From Candidatus Liptonbacteria bacterium (GTDB lineage Bacteria > Patescibacteriota > Minisyncoccia > UBA6257 > 2-01-FULL-56-20), in the NCBI GenBank assembly GCA_016194445.1, contig JACQBP010000035.1, forward strand, positions 4,396 to 68,395: a stretch of DNA of 64,000 nucleotides, read 5' to 3'. Made by a program: the position numbers and the translations under genes. Each line of letters opens with the position of its first letter. Position 1 is the first letter of the stretch. The notes below the pieces were generated by a model. The model ran no database searches, was not told the origin of the DNA, and saw only the letters and a list, made by a program, of their open reading frames with translations. Shown here piece by piece: positions 50,160-64,000 of the stretch.

Positions 50160-50429
50160 TCCCCGGTAGCTCAGTGGTAGAGCGGATCCCTGTCGGATAG
50201 GCAGCCTACAAGAGTAATCTTGTTTGAAAATTTCGGGATAACGGTGAACCCTTCGATACGCTTTGGCATATAAAGGTAACACCGTGGGAACCTCGCAATT
50301 TGCGGGGGCACCGTAGAGACTAGATACCGAAACATCCCAGTTGGGATGATGATATAGTCCGCGCCCTTTGGAAACTTTGGGATAAGTGTAAGGATAAGGT
50401 CGTAGGTTCGAATCCTACCCGGGGAGCCA
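50160..50429 (+). tRNA. tRNA gene interrupted by a group I intron; most likely tRNA-Asn(GUU)
   Basis: 5' exon (50160..50193) is TCCCCGGTAGCTCAGTGGTAGAGCGGATCCCTGT. 3' exon (50389..50426, plus CCA) is TAAGGATAAGGTCGTAGGTTCGAATCCTACCCGGGGAG+CCA. Joining them gives the anticodon loop CUGUUAA. U1:A72 and G73 match bacterial tRNA-Asn. Confidence 0.75.
50194..50388 (+). ncRNA. group I self-splicing intron (about 195 nt, small IC3-like) in the tRNA anticodon loop
   Basis: Conserved core elements are present: P-like AATTTGCGGG, R-like GTAGAGACTAGA and S-like GATATAGTCC. The 5' exon ends in U and the intron ends in G. A possible P1 pairs exon CUGU with intron GCAG. Confidence 0.7.
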
Positions 50430-52016
50430 GATGGGATGAGTGTCGCGAAAAGCGGCACTTTTCTCTTTATTGGTGGGCTTTTTCGCAGGTTCGAAAGTGC
50501 TTTTTTCGGTGTTTTTCTCGGAAAGCTCTTGTTGAACTCGATCATGTATGAGTTTAAAGGCTTTTTGGTAAGAAACCTCGACATTCTTGCCGTTTATCTT
50601 GGGGTTCGAAAATAGAAATGACAGCAGGGTTCGTTTTTGCTCAACCGTTCGCCGGGGTTTTAGATAAGTGTCGCGGGCCTCTTTTGCTATTTGAAGCACG
50701 GCCACACCCATCTCAAAATATTTGAGATTCGCGTTGCGATGGCGGTTTAAGCTGTCCAGCGTTTCTTCTTGCTCTTTTTTGTATTGCTGGAGTTTTTTGT
50801 CATAAAAATCGTGGCTGATTCGGCCGTCGATTTTATCGTCATAAAGTTTATCTATTCTCTGGGTGGCCGTCTGATATCTTCGTTCAAGTTCGGCCGATGA
50901 TTTTTCACGGAAGGCGATCTCGCCGGCATGGCTTTCTTTGAGTGCCTCTTGGACCCACGAGAGCATCCGTTCAATGCGTTTATCTTCGTGGCTTACTTCA
51001 ACCACCGATTTGGCCACTTGAGTATTGATATCTTCTTGCTTTACCCAATCATAATTCGGGCAGTTTTTGTAATGATTGCAGTGGCCGTACCAATGGCCTT
51101 TTTGTATTTCCCAAGTAATCGTTCCTCCGCATTCACTGCATCGGAATACGCTTTTAAACAGCGAATTGTGCTTTCGCATCCTCGGAGCTCCGTAACTGTG
51201 CAATCTATCCTGCACTTTTTGAAAAAGTTCTTTACTGATAAGCGGTTCGTGGTGACCCGGGGTGATCTGATTTTTCCATCGGTTCATGCCGTAGTAGAAC
51301 GGATCACCGAGAAGCTGATGGATTCGGGCATGGCTTACTTTGTGACTGGTACGCGAGCGCAGGCCTTTTTCATACATCGCATTGCAGAGTGTCTTGGTTG
51401 AGTATTGGCCGGATGCATATAATTCAAACATCTTTTTAATGAGTGGTGATTTTTCCTCGTCAATCACATGAACTTTATGTCCCTTCTCGCCGTCGGTTTT
51501 ATATCCGAGCGGAGGCTTTGTCGGCAACCATCCCTGCGCCAGTTTTTCTTTTTGCCCCTTTTTTACATTTTCAGAGAGCAGTCGGATATAGTATTCGGCT
51601 GTTGCCACTTTTACTCGCCACATAAACCACTCGTGCGATTTTGATTCTTTGTGCAGGGTGCATCCTTCTTTGACCAGATGAATTTTATGATTATCATCGG
51701 CCAGTATCCAATTATCAATAACCGGTACATCGGCGAAGTTTCTGGTGAGCCGGTCGGTGGTCTCTACGATGATGGTGTTGATTTTGTTTTTTACCACATG
51801 CGCCATCATCTCGCCGAAGATTTTTCGCTGGATTTTGCCGGCGGCCGACTCTTGGATGGCAAAAACTTTCGTGAGCTCGAAGTTATTGCGTTCGGCATAG
51901 TCGCGAAGGAATTTTTCTTGGGCCGGTAGTGAATAGCCGGTATCCTCTTGATCTTTTGAGGACACGCGGGCGTATCCCACGGTCTTTGGCATTTCGTTAT
52001 TGTTTATCATTGTCAT
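50415..52016 (-). CDS. large serine recombinase (integrase)
   Basis: N-terminal resolvase catalytic domain with VGYARVSSKDQ; recombinase domain; zinc ribbon CSECGG...HCNHY. The 3' end overlaps the tRNA 3' end by 15 nt. Confidence 0.85.
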   Translation of the reverse strand: MTMINNNEMPKTVGYARVSSKDQEDTGYSLPAQEKFLRDYAERNNFELTKVFAIQESAAGKIQRKIFGEMMAHVVKNKINTIIVETTDRLTRNFADVPVIDNWILADDNHKIHLVKEGCTLHKESKSHEWFMWRVKVATAEYYIRLLSENVKKGQKEKLAQGWLPTKPPLGYKTDGEKGHKVHVIDEEKSPLIKKMFELYASGQYSTKTLCNAMYEKGLRSRTSHKVSHARIHQLLGDPFYYGMNRWKNQITPGHHEPLISKELFQKVQDRLHSYGAPRMRKHNSLFKSVFRCSECGGTITWEIQKGHWYGHCNHYKNCPNYDWVKQEDINTQVAKSVVEVSHEDKRIERMLSWVQEALKESHAGEIAFREKSSAELERRYQTATQRIDKLYDDKIDGRISHDFYDKKLQQYKKEQEETLDSLNRHRNANLKYFEMGVAVLQIAKEARDTYLKPRRTVEQKRTLLSFLFSNPKINGKNVEVSYQKAFKLIHDRVQQELSEKNTEKSTFEPAKKPTNKEKSAAFRDTHPIWLPG

Positions 52017-55440: not shown

Positions 55441-56070
55441 TTGTCGGAAAAAGAAATAAGTGATATGGTAAAAAATATTTCCATAGCTTCTATGCCCAAA
55501 CCACAACTTACCTACAATCCCAATTATTATGACGGAACAAACCTCATGCAGCTGAGACCGCGCGAGGTTGCTTTCAAAACATATAAAATGCGCGACGGTA
55601 CTCTGATAGGCTTATTTCAGGGAAGTCGTGGAGTGCGACCAGACATTGATTTCGTTATAAAAATTCTTATTCCCGGATCCGATAAAAAATTAAGACCACC
55701 AACTCACACCTTTTGGGTTGTGGATCTATTACTTAAAATCCCGCAATACAAGAACGAGGTGAAAGAAATTGTGCAATATTATATAGATTATTACGAACGG
55801 ACGGTTCCTTTTGCTTCTGTTCAGGAAAGAAATAATTACCAGCTTGAAACCGTTGAGGAAATTACAACTCGTTATGCGCAACTGGAGCAACCATATACAC
55901 TTTCACTCGATTATGTCGCGACGGTCATTGAACTTTTTTGTAAGAACGAGAAAATCAACCCCGGCGCATATATGTTCCGAAATCTCTTGCTCGTGTTGAG
56001 AGATTATATTGACGGCAATAAGCACTATACAGAAGTGCTTCAGGCCGCAATGCCTGGCTACAGAAATTAG
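55441..56070 (+). CDS. hypothetical protein
   Basis: 209 aa; no recognisable motif. Confidence 0.35.
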   Translation: MSEKEISDMVKNISIASMPKPQLTYNPNYYDGTNLMQLRPREVAFKTYKMRDGTLIGLFQGSRGVRPDIDFVIKILIPGSDKKLRPPTHTFWVVDLLLKIPQYKNEVKEIVQYYIDYYERTVPFASVQERNNYQLETVEEITTRYAQLEQPYTLSLDYVATVIELFCKNEKINPGAYMFRNLLLVLRDYIDGNKHYTEVLQAAMPGYRN

Positions 56071-56711
56071 CTTGCTGTCTCAAAAATCTTTTTTACTAGC
56101 CCTGTGCGAGCATAGAATGCCCGAGTAATAGGGCGACGCTTTCCAGTTCGCGGATTAATACCACCAATGCCTTTTGTGCGAGCCTGTATCCACTTGCCGT
56201 CTTTCCCGGTTAAGGCATCAAAACCCTTCTTAATCAGTTTGTCGCGGATAAAATCGTAGTCGGCCTTGATTTCTTTTATCAATTCACCGTCCTCGGCGAA
56301 ATCCAAGCTTGCCACGCTCAGCAACTCCGCTTTCTTGGAATTCATGCCATTCCATTTTACGGCACAAAAAATAATAGTTTTAAATTTTGCCCAAACATGA
56401 CTTTCAAAAAACGAATGATCCTTTAATTCTTCGGGGTGGACCATTGTTATCGCCATCGTTTCTTTTGGTACGAGTTTATTGTTCACATAATGAAAGGCGA
56501 CGGATTTGAGTTCGTAAGTAAGCCCATTCGGTGCTTTTGAGACATTTGTTTGTAGCCCCGCCAACCGTTCTAAGACAAGACCCTTCCAGCCTTTATTTTG
56601 CTTTCCATTCTTAAACGAATTGATACCGAATTGCAAAGCAAGATCGGCAAGGTCTCTACCAATATATTTCTTCAGATTTTTTATCGCAGTTGCCCGAGTT
56701 ACAATTTTCAT
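56067..56711 (-). CDS. MutH/Sau3AI-family GATC endonuclease (restriction subunit)
   Basis: Similar to MutH. NKGWKGLVLERLAG aligns with MutH DKGWIGVLLEIWLG, TYELKSVAF with GVELKTIPV, and the C-terminal ITRAFYARTGLVKKIF with RGFYLKKNF. Translationally coupled (ATGA) to the upstream methyltransferase. Confidence 0.75.
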   Translation of the reverse strand: MKIVTRATAIKNLKKYIGRDLADLALQFGINSFKNGKQNKGWKGLVLERLAGLQTNVSKAPNGLTYELKSVAFHYVNNKLVPKETMAITMVHPEELKDHSFFESHVWAKFKTIIFCAVKWNGMNSKKAELLSVASLDFAEDGELIKEIKADYDFIRDKLIKKGFDALTGKDGKWIQARTKGIGGINPRTGKRRPITRAFYARTGLVKKIFETAS

Positions 56712-58177
56712 GCCTCTTTGATAAGTTTATTGTTTAAATTGCGATCCAATTCCTCGAATCGTTTAATAGATAGCTCTAAAAATTTTGATTCGGTATCAAT
56801 ACCTATAAATTTTCTTCCATGAAGATAGGCCGCAATGCCGGTAGTGGAACTTCCTGTAAATGGGTCAATGACCAGATCACCTTTATTCGTGCTTGCGAGT
56901 ACTATTCTTTTTAACAAATCTTCTGGTTTTTGTGTAGGGTGTTTTCCAAACTTTTTTTCTATCGGCTTGGGAGTGCCCATTGACCAAACCGAGCGCATTT
57001 GGAGCCCTGGCTTTTTTAAATTATCCTCCGTCCAATGGCCGTTTTTCATCAGATCATAATTGAATGTGTGTTTCGCCTTTCTTTCTTTTCTTGCCCAAAT
57101 TAAAGTTTCGTGACTTGCGGTAAAGTATCGGCAACTAAGATTCGGTGACGCGTTTGGTTTAAACCATGCGATGTCGTTTAAGATATGATATCCGAGTGCC
57201 TGTAGAGCATGGCCGCACTGGTAAATTGAGTGATAGGTACCGCTAACCCAGAGAGTACCGTGCGGCTTCAAAACTCTTCGACACGCCTCCATCCATTTGT
57301 AATGAAAATCATAGTCATCTTTAAACCCCTTACTCTTGTCCCAATCTCCCTTATTCACGCTAACCATTCGTCCGGCGTGAACCGTAAAGCCGCCGTTGGA
57401 AAGGTTGTAGGGTGGATCGGCAAAAATCATATCCACAGAATTTTCTGGAAGTCGTGCTATCACATCTAAGCAATTTGCTTGAAAGAGTTTGAATTTTGGT
57501 TTTTCGTAATAGGGCTTTAGTGCTACTGTACCTTGGTCTGTTTTTTCGATAACAATTTCGGGGATATTTACACTTGCTTCTTGAATCACATCCAGCACTA
57601 TCCCTTGGATCGAGACATCTCGTCCGTTTCTAAATATAAGCGGCTCCATGCTTTTGTTTGCTGGTTGTAAGCGAATATGTCCGCGTTCTCTATAAAATTT
57701 CTTTAGCGTTGCTTCGTGGTTATCGATGAGGGCGACTACCTTTTGTCCGTTATCGGCAACAGCTTGTTGCTTTACCAATACAACATCGCCATTATTGATT
57801 CCTTCATCGATCATACTATCGCCGAGCACGCGCAGGGCATAGAATTCACCGCTTCGTGGTAGCTTGTTTTGAGGGATCGCAATAGTTTCCTTTTCTTGTA
57901 TTGCCTCTATCGGCTGGCCCGCGGCTATGGTGCCCAAAAGAGGAATTTTTACCAGTTTAGCGGTTTTTTCTATTAAACTAATGCCACGCGCTGAATTATC
58001 GTTTTTTGCAACGAATCCTTTATCTGCCAAAACTCCGATATGCTGGTGGATCGTTGAAAGAGAGGAGAGTCGGAAGTGTTTTTTGATTTCTTCCAAAGTC
58101 GGTGAAAAGCCCTTCTTGTTGATATAAGACTCGGTGTAGTCGTAGATTTGTTTTTGTCGCTTGGTTAGTGTGGCCAT
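56708..58177 (-). CDS. LexA-like repressor (wHTH plus S24 peptidase) fused to a DpnA-like GATC N6-adenine DNA methyltransferase
   Basis: The N-terminal 200 aa align with E. coli LexA, including the AAG cleavage site and GDSM/K catalytic residues (LTKRQKQIYDY, GTIAAGQP, LRVLGDSMIDEGINNGDVVLV, TLKKF). The C-terminal 285 aa align with M.DpnIIB/DpnA: DMIFADPPYNLSNGG, VSVNKGDWDK, NLSCRYFTASHETLIWARK, GKHPTQKPEDLLKRIVLAST and VIDPFTGSSTTG. Confidence 0.8.
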   Translation of the reverse strand: MATLTKRQKQIYDYTESYINKKGFSPTLEEIKKHFRLSSLSTIHQHIGVLADKGFVAKNDNSARGISLIEKTAKLVKIPLLGTIAAGQPIEAIQEKETIAIPQNKLPRSGEFYALRVLGDSMIDEGINNGDVVLVKQQAVADNGQKVVALIDNHEATLKKFYRERGHIRLQPANKSMEPLIFRNGRDVSIQGIVLDVIQEASVNIPEIVIEKTDQGTVALKPYYEKPKFKLFQANCLDVIARLPENSVDMIFADPPYNLSNGGFTVHAGRMVSVNKGDWDKSKGFKDDYDFHYKWMEACRRVLKPHGTLWVSGTYHSIYQCGHALQALGYHILNDIAWFKPNASPNLSCRYFTASHETLIWARKERKAKHTFNYDLMKNGHWTEDNLKKPGLQMRSVWSMGTPKPIEKKFGKHPTQKPEDLLKRIVLASTNKGDLVIDPFTGSSTTGIAAYLHGRKFIGIDTESKFLELSIKRFEELDRNLNNKLIKEA

Positions 58178-58276
58178 AAACGATTGACTCGGTGTATTTA
58201 TTTTCTTACACTATCAGTATACCGAAGATTTGCCGAAGATGTAATAGCCCACTTATCCACATGCAGAGAAATAGCA

Positions 58277-58294
58277 AACAAGTCGACAAACTTG
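58277..58294. promoter_or_regulatory. ACAAGT-N6-ACTTGT palindrome (with central GTCGAC) in the divergent promoter region; candidate operator
   Basis: Only strong palindrome in the 170-bp region between the LexA-methyltransferase start and the 1205-aa gene start. Confidence 0.35.
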
Positions 58295-58347
58295 TCTATA
58301 AACTCTACGGCCTCACTTCGGAGGAGTTAAGATTGTAGAACAAAACC

Positions 58348-61300
58348 ATGCCGGAAAACGATAAAGAAATACCAGTTCCATATGAGAAGCCACTAATTTT
58401 AAGCGAGAAGCAAAAATGGCTTTGCTCACATTTGGATGCACTCAACGGCATTGAAAATTTTTGTCCAAACGCAATCCCATCCGATCTTTTTGTAGGCGCA
58501 CTGTCTTTGGTTAAATCAAAAAACAGAAAGACAAACCCTGATTGGATGGCACAGGCAGCTCATTCTTTGCGAGAAATATTATATGGAGTGGGGCAGGTCA
58601 GACGACCCAAAAATAAACTTATCCTGGCTTGGCAAGTTTTCTTGGGAAAAGGTGAAAATTCTCTGACTCGAAGAGCGAGGATTGAAAATTTATTGAAAGT
58701 ATACCAAGAGGAACAGCGGGCTTCAGAATTAGCTCATGTTTTAAATGATTTACATTTTATATTTACCAATATCGCTCATCATTTGCAGGATAGTCAAAAA
58801 CATAAGTATGTAAAAAAGAAACTAATAAAAATAGGGATTTCAAATCCAGAACCTTCCTTGATAGTAACTGAAGCTGTATTTGAACAATTGATGGATACTC
58901 TGGAAAATGCTTGGGCACAATCTATTCCTCGACAACTTACCATTCATGAACAAATCGATTCTCTGTTAAGCCGCGATCCAAAATTAGTCAGCAAAGGAGT
59001 TTTGAATGTTCTTTTATCTTTTAACCCCGACGCGCGGTACTACTTTTATACCAAAGCCGATGAGCGTTGGCTTGGTTGGCTTTGGGGAAATGGTTTTCTG
59101 GATGTTATCAAACAAAAAGCAGAAGATCCTACGCGCTATGGCTATAGAACACCAGAAGTTAATTACCTCGTAAAAGTTTCTGAAAAAGAGCCGGCAAAGG
59201 TGGTTGATATTATGCTGGCCGTACCGATTTCTACGGAGAACTTTAATCCAGAAGTGGTGGACAGGTTCTTACGCATTTGTAGTGGCTTGCCAGCACCAGA
59301 ACTCAAACGGATGGTAAAGAAAATTCGTGATGATGGATTGGTGCGACTTATGGGTGCATTCAACGATTGGGGTTTTGAGTATGAAAAAATGCTTAAAACT
59401 TTAACTGATGTCAATGACTTTGATAGCGTTCTTGTTCTTGCAGAGGCAGTACTTTCCATTCGTACAAAAAAAGAAGCCGAACAAACTTCGCGCGGCTTTT
59501 TGTCCGACAATCCTTTCTACTTCAAAGAACTAAGCTATACAAAAGTATTCGAATACTTACTCAAGGTGGATGAGAAAAACATTGAAAATGCACTCACCTT
59601 GGTAACCAGCACGATGAAAGAGGTTGTACTCTTTGGAGAAAAAGAAGGCAAGGATGAAGTGTTTAAGGTTTATGATAGCTACTTTTTATTAGATGTAGAT
59701 TTTTTTGAGCTTGAACTTACCGAAAAAGACAGGCTTTCGCACAGAGACGATGTTAAAAATCTCGCAGCTGTTATTAAGCATTATGCAGAGCAAACCATCG
59801 GGAAGAAATGTGACGATGTCGAATCGGCAGTTAAGCTGTATAACCAGTATTTTAATCATCTCCCGGATAGCCGCTCTATGTGGCGTCTCCGATTATTTGT
59901 ATTGAGTTTGTGCCCCGGCGCATTTAAAGAAGAGCTTAAAAAGGCATTCTTCCGATTGTTTGAGATTGAGCGTTACTATAACGAGATTATTTCTGGCACA
60001 GAATATTTGAAGGCGCTCCGTATTGGATTTCCTGTTTTATCTGATGATGATAAGCGTAAATATGTAAAACAGGTTATAGATTACTTTGTAAAAAAAGACC
60101 AAGAAAAAGAGAACGAAAAAGAAAATTGGCATATAGGGTATGGCTCGAGAATTATTTCAGTAATAGCCGATCAGCTTACTGAAGAAGAAAAACAAACAGC
60201 CAAAGACGCTGGATTTACGCTCGATCCTAACTATAAGCCAGAGCCATCCATAAAGATGGGTGGTTTTGCTGGTAGCATAAGACCAAGGGGACCGATAATC
60301 CAAGAAGAATTTGGAAATCTCTCGATAACTGATATTGCAGGGAAATTAAGAGTTGAATGGACGCCAGAAGAGTTGAGAAAAGAAAATACAAACGAGGATT
60401 TTCATAATCCCTTAAATGCAGAGGGTGTCGGCGAAATGTTGCGAATTGATATAACTAAGCGTCTACAAGATTATATAAATAACGCAAACATCTTTTTTGA
60501 ACGAGATAAATTAGACCAGCACTATACTTATTCTTTTCTGCGAGGCATACAAGAGGTTCTTCGAGGCAATAAAACCGAGGTCAGTGGTATAAATTGGGAT
60601 AATTTGATAGCTCTTTGCGTCACGATAAAGAAATCTGGCGAGACAAAACCCTTCGATAGCGGAAATCGCGAGCGCGATACTTTTGATGCGTGGCTTTCTG
60701 GCTGGACAGGCGTTCATTCTGCTATGACAGATGTTGTCCAAGAACTACTGACCGAAGAAAGGGGTGCTAAAATCGACTTTCCTAAATATCGCGATGACCT
60801 GTTTGGGGTCATAGGATATCTCCTTTCTTATCCCGATCCAGTTCCCGCCGACGAAGAGCCGAAAACAGCAAAAATGACTACAACGCCTCCTGGCGCAAAA
60901 GAACAAATGGTAAGCGATCCTTATTCGATGGCAATCAACACGGTACGGGGTAGAGCATTTCAAGCTTTTGCGTTGTTTATGTATCAAGACGGGAAGAAGT
61001 TCTCTAAAAACGAAAAAATAAAGATTTCCCTCGATGTTAAGGGACTGTACGAGGCTGTTCTCAAAAAAGAAAATACCCGGGCCCTTATGTTTATGTTCGG
61101 GCATTATCTGCCGTCGTTCTACTTTCGAGATAAAGAGTGGATGCAGAGCCTTTTCTCGCAGATTTTTTCTGCAGAGCCAACAAAGAAAAATCTCTATACG
61201 GCCGCATGGGAGGGCTATGTTTCAGCAAATCTTTATGATGAGATATTCTTCAACCCAGATACTCAGAAGTTATACGAACGGGGTCTTGCTCTGACAGATT

Positions 61301-61965
61301 CGGACTATCCACAACAAAAGCATTTCAAAGAACCGGACGAAGGCGTTGCTGTTCATGTTGCGCTTGCCTTCATGCACTTCTCGAAATTTGATTTTGACCA
61401 CGATCTATTCAAAAAATTCTGGAGTATGCCAAACCCGGAATATCACAAAGAATTTATCTCCTTTATCGGTCGCCACTCTATTTCACGAAAATCGGCTGCG
61501 GAATGGATAAAATACAATAAAGTCGATATTGAGAAACTTAAAAAGTTCTGGGATTGGGCGCTTAAAAATTGCAACATAGATGCGCTTACCGGCTTTGGTT
61601 TCTGGATTAATATGGAGCGTAGCCCATTGGATACAAAATGGCTCGCAAGTCACGCACGCCAAACGCTTGAGAAAACAAAGGGATATGTTGAGTGGGAATA
61701 TGGATTAATGCGCTCACTTGCGGCATTTGCAAAAGAGGCGCCGGAAGACACGCTTGCCATTTTGCGCGCTCATCTCCTTGAAGAGGTTGCAAAACATGAG
61801 CCAGTGAGAACATGGCTTCACATGGATGCCGAAGTTTATGACACCTTCAAAGAACTCTATAAAAATGAAGCGACAAAAGAAGGGGTGCGCACGCTTGTTA
61901 ACGACCTCTTGCCTTATCGTAATGGGATGTTTTGGGGGTTGAAATCTATCTTGGAAGAAAAATGA
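58348..61965 (+). CDS. large (1205 aa) uncharacterised alpha-helical protein, element-encoded
   Basis: Long uninterrupted ORF with no P-loop or nuclease motif found. Its stop overlaps the start of the PrimPol-helicase (ATGA). Confidence 0.5.
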   Translation: MPENDKEIPVPYEKPLILSEKQKWLCSHLDALNGIENFCPNAIPSDLFVGALSLVKSKNRKTNPDWMAQAAHSLREILYGVGQVRRPKNKLILAWQVFLGKGENSLTRRARIENLLKVYQEEQRASELAHVLNDLHFIFTNIAHHLQDSQKHKYVKKKLIKIGISNPEPSLIVTEAVFEQLMDTLENAWAQSIPRQLTIHEQIDSLLSRDPKLVSKGVLNVLLSFNPDARYYFYTKADERWLGWLWGNGFLDVIKQKAEDPTRYGYRTPEVNYLVKVSEKEPAKVVDIMLAVPISTENFNPEVVDRFLRICSGLPAPELKRMVKKIRDDGLVRLMGAFNDWGFEYEKMLKTLTDVNDFDSVLVLAEAVLSIRTKKEAEQTSRGFLSDNPFYFKELSYTKVFEYLLKVDEKNIENALTLVTSTMKEVVLFGEKEGKDEVFKVYDSYFLLDVDFFELELTEKDRLSHRDDVKNLAAVIKHYAEQTIGKKCDDVESAVKLYNQYFNHLPDSRSMWRLRLFVLSLCPGAFKEELKKAFFRLFEIERYYNEIISGTEYLKALRIGFPVLSDDDKRKYVKQVIDYFVKKDQEKENEKENWHIGYGSRIISVIADQLTEEEKQTAKDAGFTLDPNYKPEPSIKMGGFAGSIRPRGPIIQEEFGNLSITDIAGKLRVEWTPEELRKENTNEDFHNPLNAEGVGEMLRIDITKRLQDYINNANIFFERDKLDQHYTYSFLRGIQEVLRGNKTEVSGINWDNLIALCVTIKKSGETKPFDSGNRERDTFDAWLSGWTGVHSAMTDVVQELLTEERGAKIDFPKYRDDLFGVIGYLLSYPDPVPADEEPKTAKMTTTPPGAKEQMVSDPYSMAINTVRGRAFQAFALFMYQDGKKFSKNEKIKISLDVKGLYEAVLKKENTRALMFMFGHYLPSFYFRDKEWMQSLFSQIFSAEPTKKNLYTAAWEGYVSANLYDEIFFNPDTQKLYERGLALTDSDYPQQKHFKEPDEGVAVHVALAFMHFSKFDFDHDLFKKFWSMPNPEYHKEFISFIGRHSISRKSAAEWIKYNKVDIEKLKKFWDWALKNCNIDALTGFGFWINMERSPLDTKWLASHARQTLEKTKGYVEWEYGLMRSLAAFAKEAPEDTLAILRAHLLEEVAKHEPVRTWLHMDAEVYDTFKELYKNEATKEGVRTLVNDLLPYRNGMFWGLKSILEEK

Positions 61966-64000
61966 TCAATATAACCGAGCAACAACTTGAGTTATTTATG
62001 TCCTTATTTCGCGGCCGCGAAGATGTTTATGCGCGTCGCTGGGAAAAAGGTGATAAGTCAGGCTATAGCCCGGCGTACGATTTTAATTGGGACGAGTTCA
62101 TGTCGCATAAACGCCGAGGCGGATCAATGAAGGATTTCGATAATAAAACATTGCTTCCTCTTGCTAGAGAAGTGGTTAAAAAGCATCTTTTGGGACAGCT
62201 TGTTGTCGGAATTTATCCAATACTTACCGAAAATACTTCGTATTTTATTACGGCTGACTTCGATGGGGAAACTTGGAATAATGATGCAAAAGCGTTTCTT
62301 CGTATTTGCAAGGAAGAGTGTATCAATGCCTATCTGGAGCGCTCTCGATCAGGTAATGGCGGACATGTTTGGATATTCTTTTCTGAACCGTACCCATGCT
62401 ATAAAAGCCGGCAAATTGTTCTTGAATTAATACGCCGCGCATTTCATATCTCCGAATTTGAGAAAGAAGTTAGTTTTGACCGCTTATTTCCAAACCAAGA
62501 TACTCTTACGAAAAATGGGTTCGGTAATTTGATAGCTTTACCATTACAGGGAAGATCATTCGAACACGGAAATGCGTTATTTGTTGATGCTGCCACGAAC
62601 AAACCCTTCTCGGATCAATGGGCCTTTTTACAAAATGCGAAGCGCCACACACCTCAGGAATTAGAAACAATGCATAGCAAGCTTTTTAATACCGCAGATA
62701 AACCAATTCAATCTTTACCAAAAGACAATAGCTTCCAAATTACGGTCAGCAATCAAATAACATTGCCGCGCGCACAACTTACGCCAACGATTATTCATTT
62801 CCTTAAAAACGAACTTAATTTTTTAAATACCGAATATCTAACCAAGCGACGACTCGGTAAATCAACTTATAAGATACAAAAATATTTCAAATTAATTGAT
62901 GAGGCGGGAGATACCATTTCGTTACCGTGTGGTTTCTTAACCCAACTGAGTGCGTTTTTGGATCAAAATCATATTGCTTATGCTTTAACGGAAAACCATG
63001 CTCTTCTGGATGAAGCGACTTTTAATAACGACATTAAGCTAACACCCGCGCAGACAAAAGTTGTAGAACAAGCCACTGGCTATAATCAAGGAGTTATCGT
63101 GGCACCTTCTGGAAGTGGTAAAACGATAATGGGACTGGAACTAATCGCCCGGAGAAAACAGCCGGCCTTAATTCTTGTACACCGCAAACAAATTCTTGAT
63201 CAGTGGGTTGACCGCATACAAGCATTTTTGGGTATCGCAAAAACACATATCGGCCAGTATTCTGGTGTCAAGAAGAAAATCGGTAAGCAAATCAGCGTTG
63301 GCCTACTTCAAAGCTTTGCAAGAAAAGGTGATTTATCCGAGCTACAAAATTCTTTCGGCACAATAATTGTTGACGAATGCCATCACATCCCCGCATCAAC
63401 TTTTCGAGAGGTTATTGCCCAGTTGAATCCACAATATCTCTATGGGCTTACGGCTACGCCCAAACGCAAACATAACGACGAAAAGCTTATCTATGTTTAT
63501 ATTGGCGACATTGTTGCTCAAATGGCCGTATCTGATGTGCCTATTCACGAAACAAAAGTAAGTGTGTACACGCCAGAAGTTTTAATACGAACCACCAATT
63601 TAGAAATACCATTCAAATTTACCACCGACTACTTTCAATTACTGGCAAAAATCATTTCTTGCGATACTGGGCGTAATCGCTTAGTTGTCGATAACATACT
63701 TAGCGAGGTTGAGAAAAATAGAAAAATCCTTGTGTTGAGCGAACGAAAAGAACACCTCGAGATTTTAAACATGTATCTTAAAAGTAAATGCGAAACTATT
63801 GTTATTTCTGGAGATGATTCTGCTCGAGCGCGGAAATCAAAACTTGCACAAATTCAAAGCGGTCATTATCAGGTTATTCTTTCAACGGGGCAATTTTTTG
63901 GTGAAGGTATCGATATTCGAGGCACAACCTGTCTTGTACTGGCTTTTCCTTTCTCGTTCGAAGGCAAGCTCATCCAGTATATGGGGCGCCTACGCGATAT
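61962..64000 (+). CDS. PrimPol (archaeo-eukaryotic primase-polymerase domain) fused to an SF2 DEAH-box helicase; partial, runs off the window
   Basis: Manual translation: PrimPol motifs GIYP...YFITADFDGE and SRSGNGGHVWIFF; helicase motif I APSGSGKT, motif II IIVDECHH, motif III LYGLTATP. Confidence 0.65.
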   Translation, partial: MINITEQQLELFMSLFRGREDVYARRWEKGDKSGYSPAYDFNWDEFMSHKRRGGSMKDFDNKTLLPLAREVVKKHLLGQLVVGIYPILTENTSYFITADFDGETWNNDAKAFLRICKEECINAYLERSRSGNGGHVWIFFSEPYPCYKSRQIVLELIRRAFHISEFEKEVSFDRLFPNQDTLTKNGFGNLIALPLQGRSFEHGNALFVDAATNKPFSDQWAFLQNAKRHTPQELETMHSKLFNTADKPIQSLPKDNSFQITVSNQITLPRAQLTPTIIHFLKNELNFLNTEYLTKRRLGKSTYKIQKYFKLIDEAGDTISLPCGFLTQLSAFLDQNHIAYALTENHALLDEATFNNDIKLTPAQTKVVEQATGYNQGVIVAPSGSGKTIMGLELIARRKQPALILVHRKQILDQWVDRIQAFLGIAKTHIGQYSGVKKKIGKQISVGLLQSFARKGDLSELQNSFGTIIVDECHHIPASTFREVIAQLNPQYLYGLTATPKRKHNDEKLIYVYIGDIVAQMAVSDVPIHETKVSVYTPEVLIRTTNLEIPFKFTTDYFQLLAKIISCDTGRNRLVVDNILSEVEKNRKILVLSERKEHLEILNMYLKSKCETIVISGDDSARARKSKLAQIQSGHYQVILSTGQFFGEGIDIRGTTCLVLAFPFSFEGKLIQYMGRLRD

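What the first reader, a model, noticed from the sequence alone, without database searches (positions are those of the whole stretch)
58348..61965. 1205-aa orphan protein co-transcribed with the PrimPol-helicase
A very large, mostly alpha-helical ORF with no motif I can recognise. Its stop overlaps the start of the PrimPol-SF2 helicase gene, and its promoter is divergent from the LexA-methyltransferase operon. Size and position inside a mobile element suggest a new replication, partition or defence component.
Basis: inference. Interest (0 to 1): 0.6.

Follow-up and report, generated by a model that had tools for sequence, protein, structure and literature searches.

The report
Restriction-linked nuclease-like helical-repeat protein
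The 1205-residue gene is real but not an orphan: it belongs to a large, unnamed family found mostly in uncultured bacteria, joins a small nuclease-like domain to a huge helical-repeat scaffold, usually sits at the end of restriction-modification operons, and is here only a cargo gene next to the primase-helicase.

Summary
The ORF at 58348-61965 (+) is real, intact and all-alpha. Its TGA overlaps the ATG of an AEP-TOTE primase/SF2-helicase gene.

It is not an orphan. A profile of its core finds 2466 50%-identity cluster representatives, mostly from Patescibacteria (CPR) and Caldilineaceae metagenome-assembled genomes (MAGs).

It has two modules:
- Residues 1-193 are a helical domain with invariant Arg75 and His144. 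It is homologous to Pfam PF18165 pP_pnuc_1, a predicted and untested nuclease.
- Residues 194-1205 are a uniformly conserved HEAT/ARM-like solenoid with no specific relative.

The modules are fused in 23 of 83 loci and are adjacent genes in 48. Elsewhere a CHAT protease or a membrane protein takes the N-module's place.

The conserved neighbours are restriction-modification genes upstream on the same strand (25 loci, against 2 downstream), not the primase-helicase. The helicase was absent from all 82 other family loci, and the family was absent from all 80 helicase loci.

In this window the gene fills a variable cargo slot between a LexA-methyltransferase and the primase-helicase. Relatives carry AbiE or Fic there. 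A 20-codon remnant of a lost Type IIG methyltransferase lies just upstream.

Best reading: a defence or conflict module made of an effector plus a scaffold/sensor, possibly a back-up to restriction. The mechanism is inferred, not shown.

The parts
58348..61965 (+). Complete gene, 1205 aa plus stop: an N-terminal effector-like domain fused to a HEAT/ARM-like solenoid.
   Evidence: ORF list and translation. 100% identical to P0001, 'hypothetical protein HY093_03755, Candidatus Liptonbacteria'. Same start and architecture in 77% and 73% identical relatives.
58348..58926 (+). N-module, residues 1-193: helical domain homologous to Pfam PF18165 pP_pnuc_1. Signature motifs are NPDWMAQAAHSLRE (R75 at 58570-58572) and IAHH (H144-H145 at 58777-58782).
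   Evidence: R75 and H144 are invariant in 61 sequences. PF18165 is the only recurrent Pfam family, matched by 12 of 61 members. The profile hits a PF18165-annotated protein at E 6e-8, and hhalign gives 96.7% probability. Family member P0286 passes the Pfam cut-off. AF2 pLDDT is 80.8, all helices.
58927..61962 (+). Core, residues 194-1205: an approximately 1000-aa alpha-solenoid conserved along its whole length. It matches the stand-alone ~1000-aa form found in other genomes.
58276..58338 (+). Remnant of the last ~20 codons (KQVDKLVYKLYGLTSEELRL*) of a Type IIG (Eco57I/MmeI-like) methyltransferase gene. Intact copies directly precede the family gene in relatives.
   Evidence: blastx gives 14/20 identity to the C-termini of the methyltransferases upstream of the family gene in L060 and L075, with further matches in L023, L014 and L009. 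Intact methyltransferases sit upstream in the closest relatives. L097 carries the same remnant, FVYKLYGLTPDEIKIVE*.
58178..58275 (.). Backbone part of the divergent intergenic region. It is conserved with L096 and L097. It holds a promoter-like TTGACT-17-TACACT (58184-58212, +) and a direct repeat CCGAAGAT-TTG-CCGAAGAT (58222-58240).
   Evidence: Three-way alignment. Consensus scan, which found no more sites than chance for the region as a whole.
61962..64000 (+). Neighbour, not a conserved partner: AEP-TOTE primase domain plus SF2 helicase. It is cut by the window end; the full gene is 719 aa in L096 and L097.
   Evidence: Pfam PF22548 E 6e-83, ResIII E 6e-29. Gene end seen in L001. Never adjacent to the family elsewhere.
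56067..58177 (-). Context, other flank of the cargo slot: LexA-S24-N6_N4 methyltransferase fusion (56708-58177) and a MutH/Sau3AI-like endonuclease (56067-56711).
   Evidence: Pfam and NCBIfam hits. The methyltransferase flank is conserved in L096 and L097.
50415..52016 (-). Context: large serine recombinase of the putative integrative element, next to the host nrdJ-like gene.
   Evidence: Resolvase and Recombinase domains. L097 also has a serine recombinase on the same backbone.

Best explanation
**What it is.** The ORF is a genuine gene for a member of a large, unnamed, horizontally spread protein family. Each member has two functionally coupled modules:
- A ~190-aa helical domain homologous to pP_pnuc_1, which Pfam calls a predicted pPIWI-associated nuclease. 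It has an invariant Arg and an invariant His.
- A ~1000-aa HEAT/ARM-like solenoid with no NTPase or other enzymatic domain.

**How I think it works (inferred).** I read it as a conflict or defence module. The solenoid is the scaffold or sensor that holds the small N-module in check. On a trigger it releases or activates that module. The N-module is the effector, most likely a nucleic-acid-cleaving toxin that stops growth or destroys invader nucleic acid.

The family gene is typically the last gene of restriction-modification operons (Types I, II, IIG, III and HKD-SNF2). The most likely trigger is therefore failure or inhibition of restriction. That would make it a PrrC/RloC-like second line of defence.

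**What it is doing in this window.** It is one cargo cassette in a variable slot of an integrative element, between the LexA-methyltransferase promoter region and the AEP primase-helicase. Its own upstream Type IIG methyltransferase was deleted down to about 20 codons. It has no conserved functional tie to the primase-helicase.

**Shown:** family membership, the two-module architecture, homology of the N-module to pP_pnuc_1, the neighbourhood statistics and the cassette replacement.

**Inferred:** the defence role, the effector and sensor assignment, the nuclease activity and the link to restriction.
For: 1. **Fusion and fission couple the two modules.** They are fused in 23 loci and are adjacent same-strand genes in 48 of 83 loci.
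2. **The N-module position is interchangeable.** In other loci it holds a CHAT protease (L037), a single-pass membrane protein (cluster c13, 5 loci, and L052) or an FRG+N-domain fusion (L036, L038, L064, L073; the PADLOC candidate PDC-S15). This is the usual pattern of effector swapping.
3. **The N-module is homologous to PF18165**. R75 and H144 are invariant.
4. **Restriction-modification genes lie upstream.** A same-strand methyltransferase lies within 3 genes upstream in 25 loci and downstream in 2. PADLOC and Pfam identify these partners as Type IIG, Type III Mod+Res, Type I HsdRMS, HKD+Snf2 and DpnII. The closest relatives are preceded directly by Type IIG enzymes, with overlapping or 2-nt-spaced genes.
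5. **Other neighbours are defence genes:** TIR+HD, CBASS, Hachiman, Mrr, and a SocA/Panacea toxin-antitoxin module.
6. **Distribution is patchy and cross-phylum.** I found 115 tblastn-confirmed stretches in 185,579 species genomes. The best 80 are kept as loci (39 CPR, 21 Chloroflexota, 4 Nitrospirota, 16 others or unclassified) and all 80 are MAGs or single-cell genomes. A Liptonbacteria copy and an Omnitrophota copy are 73% identical. Some genomes hold two copies or tandem copies (L037/L039, L064/L066, L047).
7. **The gene is a replaceable cassette.** Homology to L096 and L097 stops at 58262/58343 and resumes at 61958-61962. The same slot upstream of related primase-helicases holds AbiEi/AbiEii (19 loci), HTH-Fic (18), a PD-(D/E)XK nuclease and others.
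8. **There is precedent.** At least 16 clades of HEPN RNase domains are linked to R-M systems and are interpreted by analogy with PrrC (PMC3710099).
Against: - No family member has been tested, and pP_pnuc_1 is itself only a predicted nuclease.
- The solenoid is uniformly and strongly conserved, with 37 invariant residues that are mostly aromatic and no hypervariable region. That is unlike sensors that bind fast-evolving phage proteins.
- About 20 Caldilineaceae loci and some CPR loci sit among metabolic or housekeeping genes with no adjacent restriction genes. A restriction partner is therefore not obligatory.
- My methyltransferase detection used only three seed clusters and a home-made ORF caller, so the counts are approximate.
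- The effector and sensor polarity could be the reverse of what I propose.
Confidence: 0.5

Rival explanations
1. It is a functional partner of the downstream AEP-TOTE primase-helicase. It could be a replication or partition factor of the element, or the TPR-like component of a TOTE (TPR, OB, TBP, Effector) conflict system.
For: There is an ATGA stop/start overlap and no terminator between the two genes. The helicase carries the Pfam AEP-TOTE domain. TOTE systems pair helical-repeat proteins with effectors (PMC12458937).
Against: The primase-helicase is next to the family gene only in this sequence: 0 of 82 other family loci have it. None of 80 loci with 44-87% identical helicases holds the core or the N-domain. 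The closest relatives (77% and 73% identity) lack it. L096 and L097 carry the same backbone with different cargo in the slot. No OB or TBP fold exists in the all-helical models, no TPR or TOTE Pfam hit appears even at E<=10, and no TPR-OB or TBP genes were seen near related helicases.
Confidence: 0.06
2. It is an accessory subunit of restriction-modification enzymes, for example a scaffold, regulator or assembly factor that enhances or controls restriction. On this view it is not an independent effector and sensor.
For: It holds the last position in operons of four or five restriction types, often with overlapping or near-abutting reading frames. The strong uniform conservation fits binding to a conserved partner.
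Against: The partner enzymes belong to unrelated types (I, II, IIG, III, HKD-SNF2, C5 methyltransferases), so no common subunit is available to bind. Many loci have no restriction genes. In this window the upstream methyltransferase is deleted, yet the gene stays intact. Swapping the N-module for a CHAT protease or a membrane protein fits a toxic effector better.
Confidence: 0.15
3. It is an addiction or toxin-antitoxin-like stabilisation module of mobile elements. The N-module would be the toxin and the solenoid its antitoxin, with no direct role against phages.
For: The equivalent slot in related elements carries AbiE and Fic/Doc-type toxin modules. Serine recombinases lie within 10 kb in 17 of 83 family loci (cluster c2; tblastn). 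The two-gene form is tightly coupled.
Against: A 1000-aa, highly conserved antitoxin would be unusual. The fused single-polypeptide form (23 loci) does not allow the differential stability on which classical toxin-antitoxin pairs rely. AbiE-type modules are themselves abortive-infection defences, so this rival overlaps the main explanation.
Confidence: 0.12
4. It is a housekeeping or lifestyle protein of ultra-small or filamentous bacteria, for example a large scaffold for host attachment or cell biology. Its position near restriction genes would be incidental.
For: The family is concentrated in CPR and Caldilineaceae. In Caldilineaceae it sits in a syntenic chromosomal context among oxidoreductase and aldolase genes. 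It is rare in viral contigs (3 loci) and absent from the phage collection.
Against: It occurs in only a tiny fraction of genomes (115 confirmed stretches among 185,579 species) with cross-phylum near-identity. There is no signal peptide and no membrane segment in the main form. It is associated with recombinases, restriction genes and defence genes, and it is replaced as a cassette in this very locus.
Confidence: 0.07

Closest known systems
Pfam PF18165 pP_pnuc_1 (predicted pPIWI-associating nuclease)
   Same: The N-terminal ~190 residues share the family's signature helices, NPD..Q.AHSLRE and [IL][AS]HH. The N-domain profile hits a PF18165-annotated protein at E 6e-8, and hhalign gives 96.7% probability. 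One family member scores above the Pfam cut-off.
   Different: The window protein itself scores 18.4 bits against a cut-off of 26.3. Here the domain is attached to, or encoded beside, a 1000-aa solenoid next to restriction genes. I did not look for Argonaute/PIWI genes in the loci. The family's nuclease activity is itself untested.
PrrC / RloC and other R-M-linked HEPN proteins (Anantharaman et al. 2013, PMC3710099)
   Same: A small helical, Arg/His-bearing predicted nuclease is joined to a large regulatory module and encoded inside or at the end of restriction-modification operons. The proposed logic is the same: a back-up effector released when restriction fails.
Repeat-scaffold plus effector immune proteins (Avs/STAND sensors, TPR-CHAT/Csx29)
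   Same: A long alpha-solenoid is combined with a swappable effector. One locus pairs the solenoid with a CHAT protease. Avs4 (8dgf) is the only prokaryotic immune protein among the Foldseek hits, with TMq 0.27.
   Different: There is no STAND/NTPase domain and no CRISPR association. The solenoid is conserved rather than diversifying. The structural similarity is generic, with TM-scores around 0.2.
TOTE conflict systems (TPR, OB, TBP, Effector; Aravind, Iyer and Burroughs 2022, as cited in PMC12458937)
   Same: The neighbouring gene carries the AEP-TOTE effector domain. Both involve a helical-repeat protein beside an effector.
   Different: No OB or TBP domain exists in the protein or its neighbourhood. 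Pfam gives no TPR match. The adjacency to the AEP gene is unique to this locus.

Membership tests
pP_pnuc_1 (Pfam PF18165) | A significant match to the family profile, at or above the gathering score of 26.3 bits. | tested here: inconclusive
   The window protein scores 18.4 bits, E 0.0017, which is below the cut-off. Twelve of 61 N-domains match at E<=0.01. Family member P0286 scores 26.6 bits, above the cut-off.
pP_pnuc_1 (Pfam PF18165) | Homology to a bona fide member, shown by profile comparison with shared conserved residues. | tested here: met
   The N-domain profile hits the PF18165-annotated protein P0148 at E 6e-8 in a database of 5.8 billion sequences. hhalign gives 96.7% probability and E 3.8e-10, and it aligns NPD..Q.AHSLRE and the HH motif.
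pP_pnuc_1 (Pfam PF18165) | Genomic association with prokaryotic PIWI/Argonaute genes. | not tested
   The neighbours I annotated were restriction, TIR, CBASS, Hachiman and similar genes, and no PIWI was seen among them. The loci were not scanned systematically for PIWI.
pP_pnuc_1 (Pfam PF18165) | Nuclease activity. | not testable with these tools
   This is a prediction only, both for the Pfam family and for the domain here.
HEPN superfamily | A contiguous Rx4-6H catalytic motif at the start of the last core helix. | tested here: not met
   Invariant R75 and H144 lie in different helices about 70 residues apart. No conserved Rx4-6H exists in the alignments.
HEPN superfamily | A four-helix up-down HEPN fold recognisable by structure comparison. 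| tested here: inconclusive
TOTE conflict system (TPR, OB, TBP, Effector) | A TPR-OB (cold-shock/S1-like) fusion protein. | tested here: not met
   The AF2 models are entirely helical with no beta-barrel. Pfam gives no TPR or TOTE S1/CSD match, even at E<=10 on fragments.
TOTE conflict system (TPR, OB, TBP, Effector) | A TBP-fold gene in the neighbourhood. | tested here: not met
   The precomputed Pfam families of all genes in L001 show none. None was found next to related helicases in L096 and L097 or in the recurrent neighbour clusters. Sequence beyond window position 64000 is not available.
TOTE conflict system (TPR, OB, TBP, Effector) | Conserved co-occurrence with the TOTE-type effector, here the AEP-helicase. 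| tested here: not met
   0 of 82 other family loci and 0 of 80 helicase loci show the pair.
HEAT/ARM alpha-solenoid (structural class only) | Stacked helical hairpins forming a superhelix, with structural matches to HEAT/ARM proteins. | tested here: met
Known anti-phage defence systems (PADLOC-DB v2.0.0) | A match to any defence protein model. | tested here: not met
   No PADLOC family matches the 1205-aa protein at E<=0.01. Only FRG-containing upstream partners in some Caldilineaceae loci match the candidate PDC-S15.

The most novel reading that the evidence does not exclude
The family is a previously unrecognised, NTPase-free class of immune guard. A rigid, highly conserved ~1000-aa HEAT solenoid would monitor the integrity or activity of whichever restriction-modification enzyme it is encoded with (Type I, II, IIG or III). 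When phage anti-restriction factors disable that enzyme, it would unleash a pP_pnuc_1 nuclease, or in variant loci a CHAT protease or a membrane effector. This would be a major second-line defence in CPR bacteria, which largely lack CRISPR.
Probability: 0.15. Interest if true: 0.7.

Novelty: new variant of a known kind. Interest (0 to 1): 0.45.

Why it matters
CPR/Patescibacteria and many other uncultured lineages rely mainly on restriction-modification for defence, and little else is known of their immunity. This family has about 2500 50%-identity clusters and carries no name or Pfam model for its 1000-residue core. It is attached to restriction operons of at least four types.

If it is a back-up effector, it would extend the PrrC/RloC 'guard of restriction' idea to a new architecture, a solenoid in place of an ATPase. 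It would also give a first functional context to the untested pP_pnuc_1 domain.

For this window the practical result is different. The gene should not be annotated as part of the primase-helicase or TOTE module. The locus is a clear example of a cargo slot in a CPR integrative element.

Tried and rejected
**Hypotheses tested and rejected**
- Orphan status: rejected.
- Merged-gene or frameshift artefact: rejected. The fused form recurs, and the closest relatives are collinear.
- TOTE membership or partnership with the AEP-helicase: rejected on reciprocal neighbourhood tests and the absence of OB and TBP.
- Homology between the membrane-anchored c13 partner and the N-domain: rejected (hhalign probability 9%).
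- A phage or plasmid origin: the phage collection gives no match and IMG/VR gives only 3 loci. Plasmids give only a distant 23%-identity relative on Legionella plasmids, flanked by insertion sequences.

**Searches that found nothing useful**
- Whole-protein and fragment scans of Pfam, NCBIfam, PADLOC and PHROGs gave nothing for the core.
- PDB sequence-profile searches gave nothing for the core or the N-domain.
- Literature searches for TOTE, pP_pnuc_1, and HEAT-repeat proteins in restriction or BREX contexts found no description of this family.

**Calls that failed or were not available**
- The word-indexed homologue search with the N-domain alone returned nothing, which cost one capped search.
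- The AFDB Foldseek library was not available.
- The 2022 review that defines TOTE is not held in the library.

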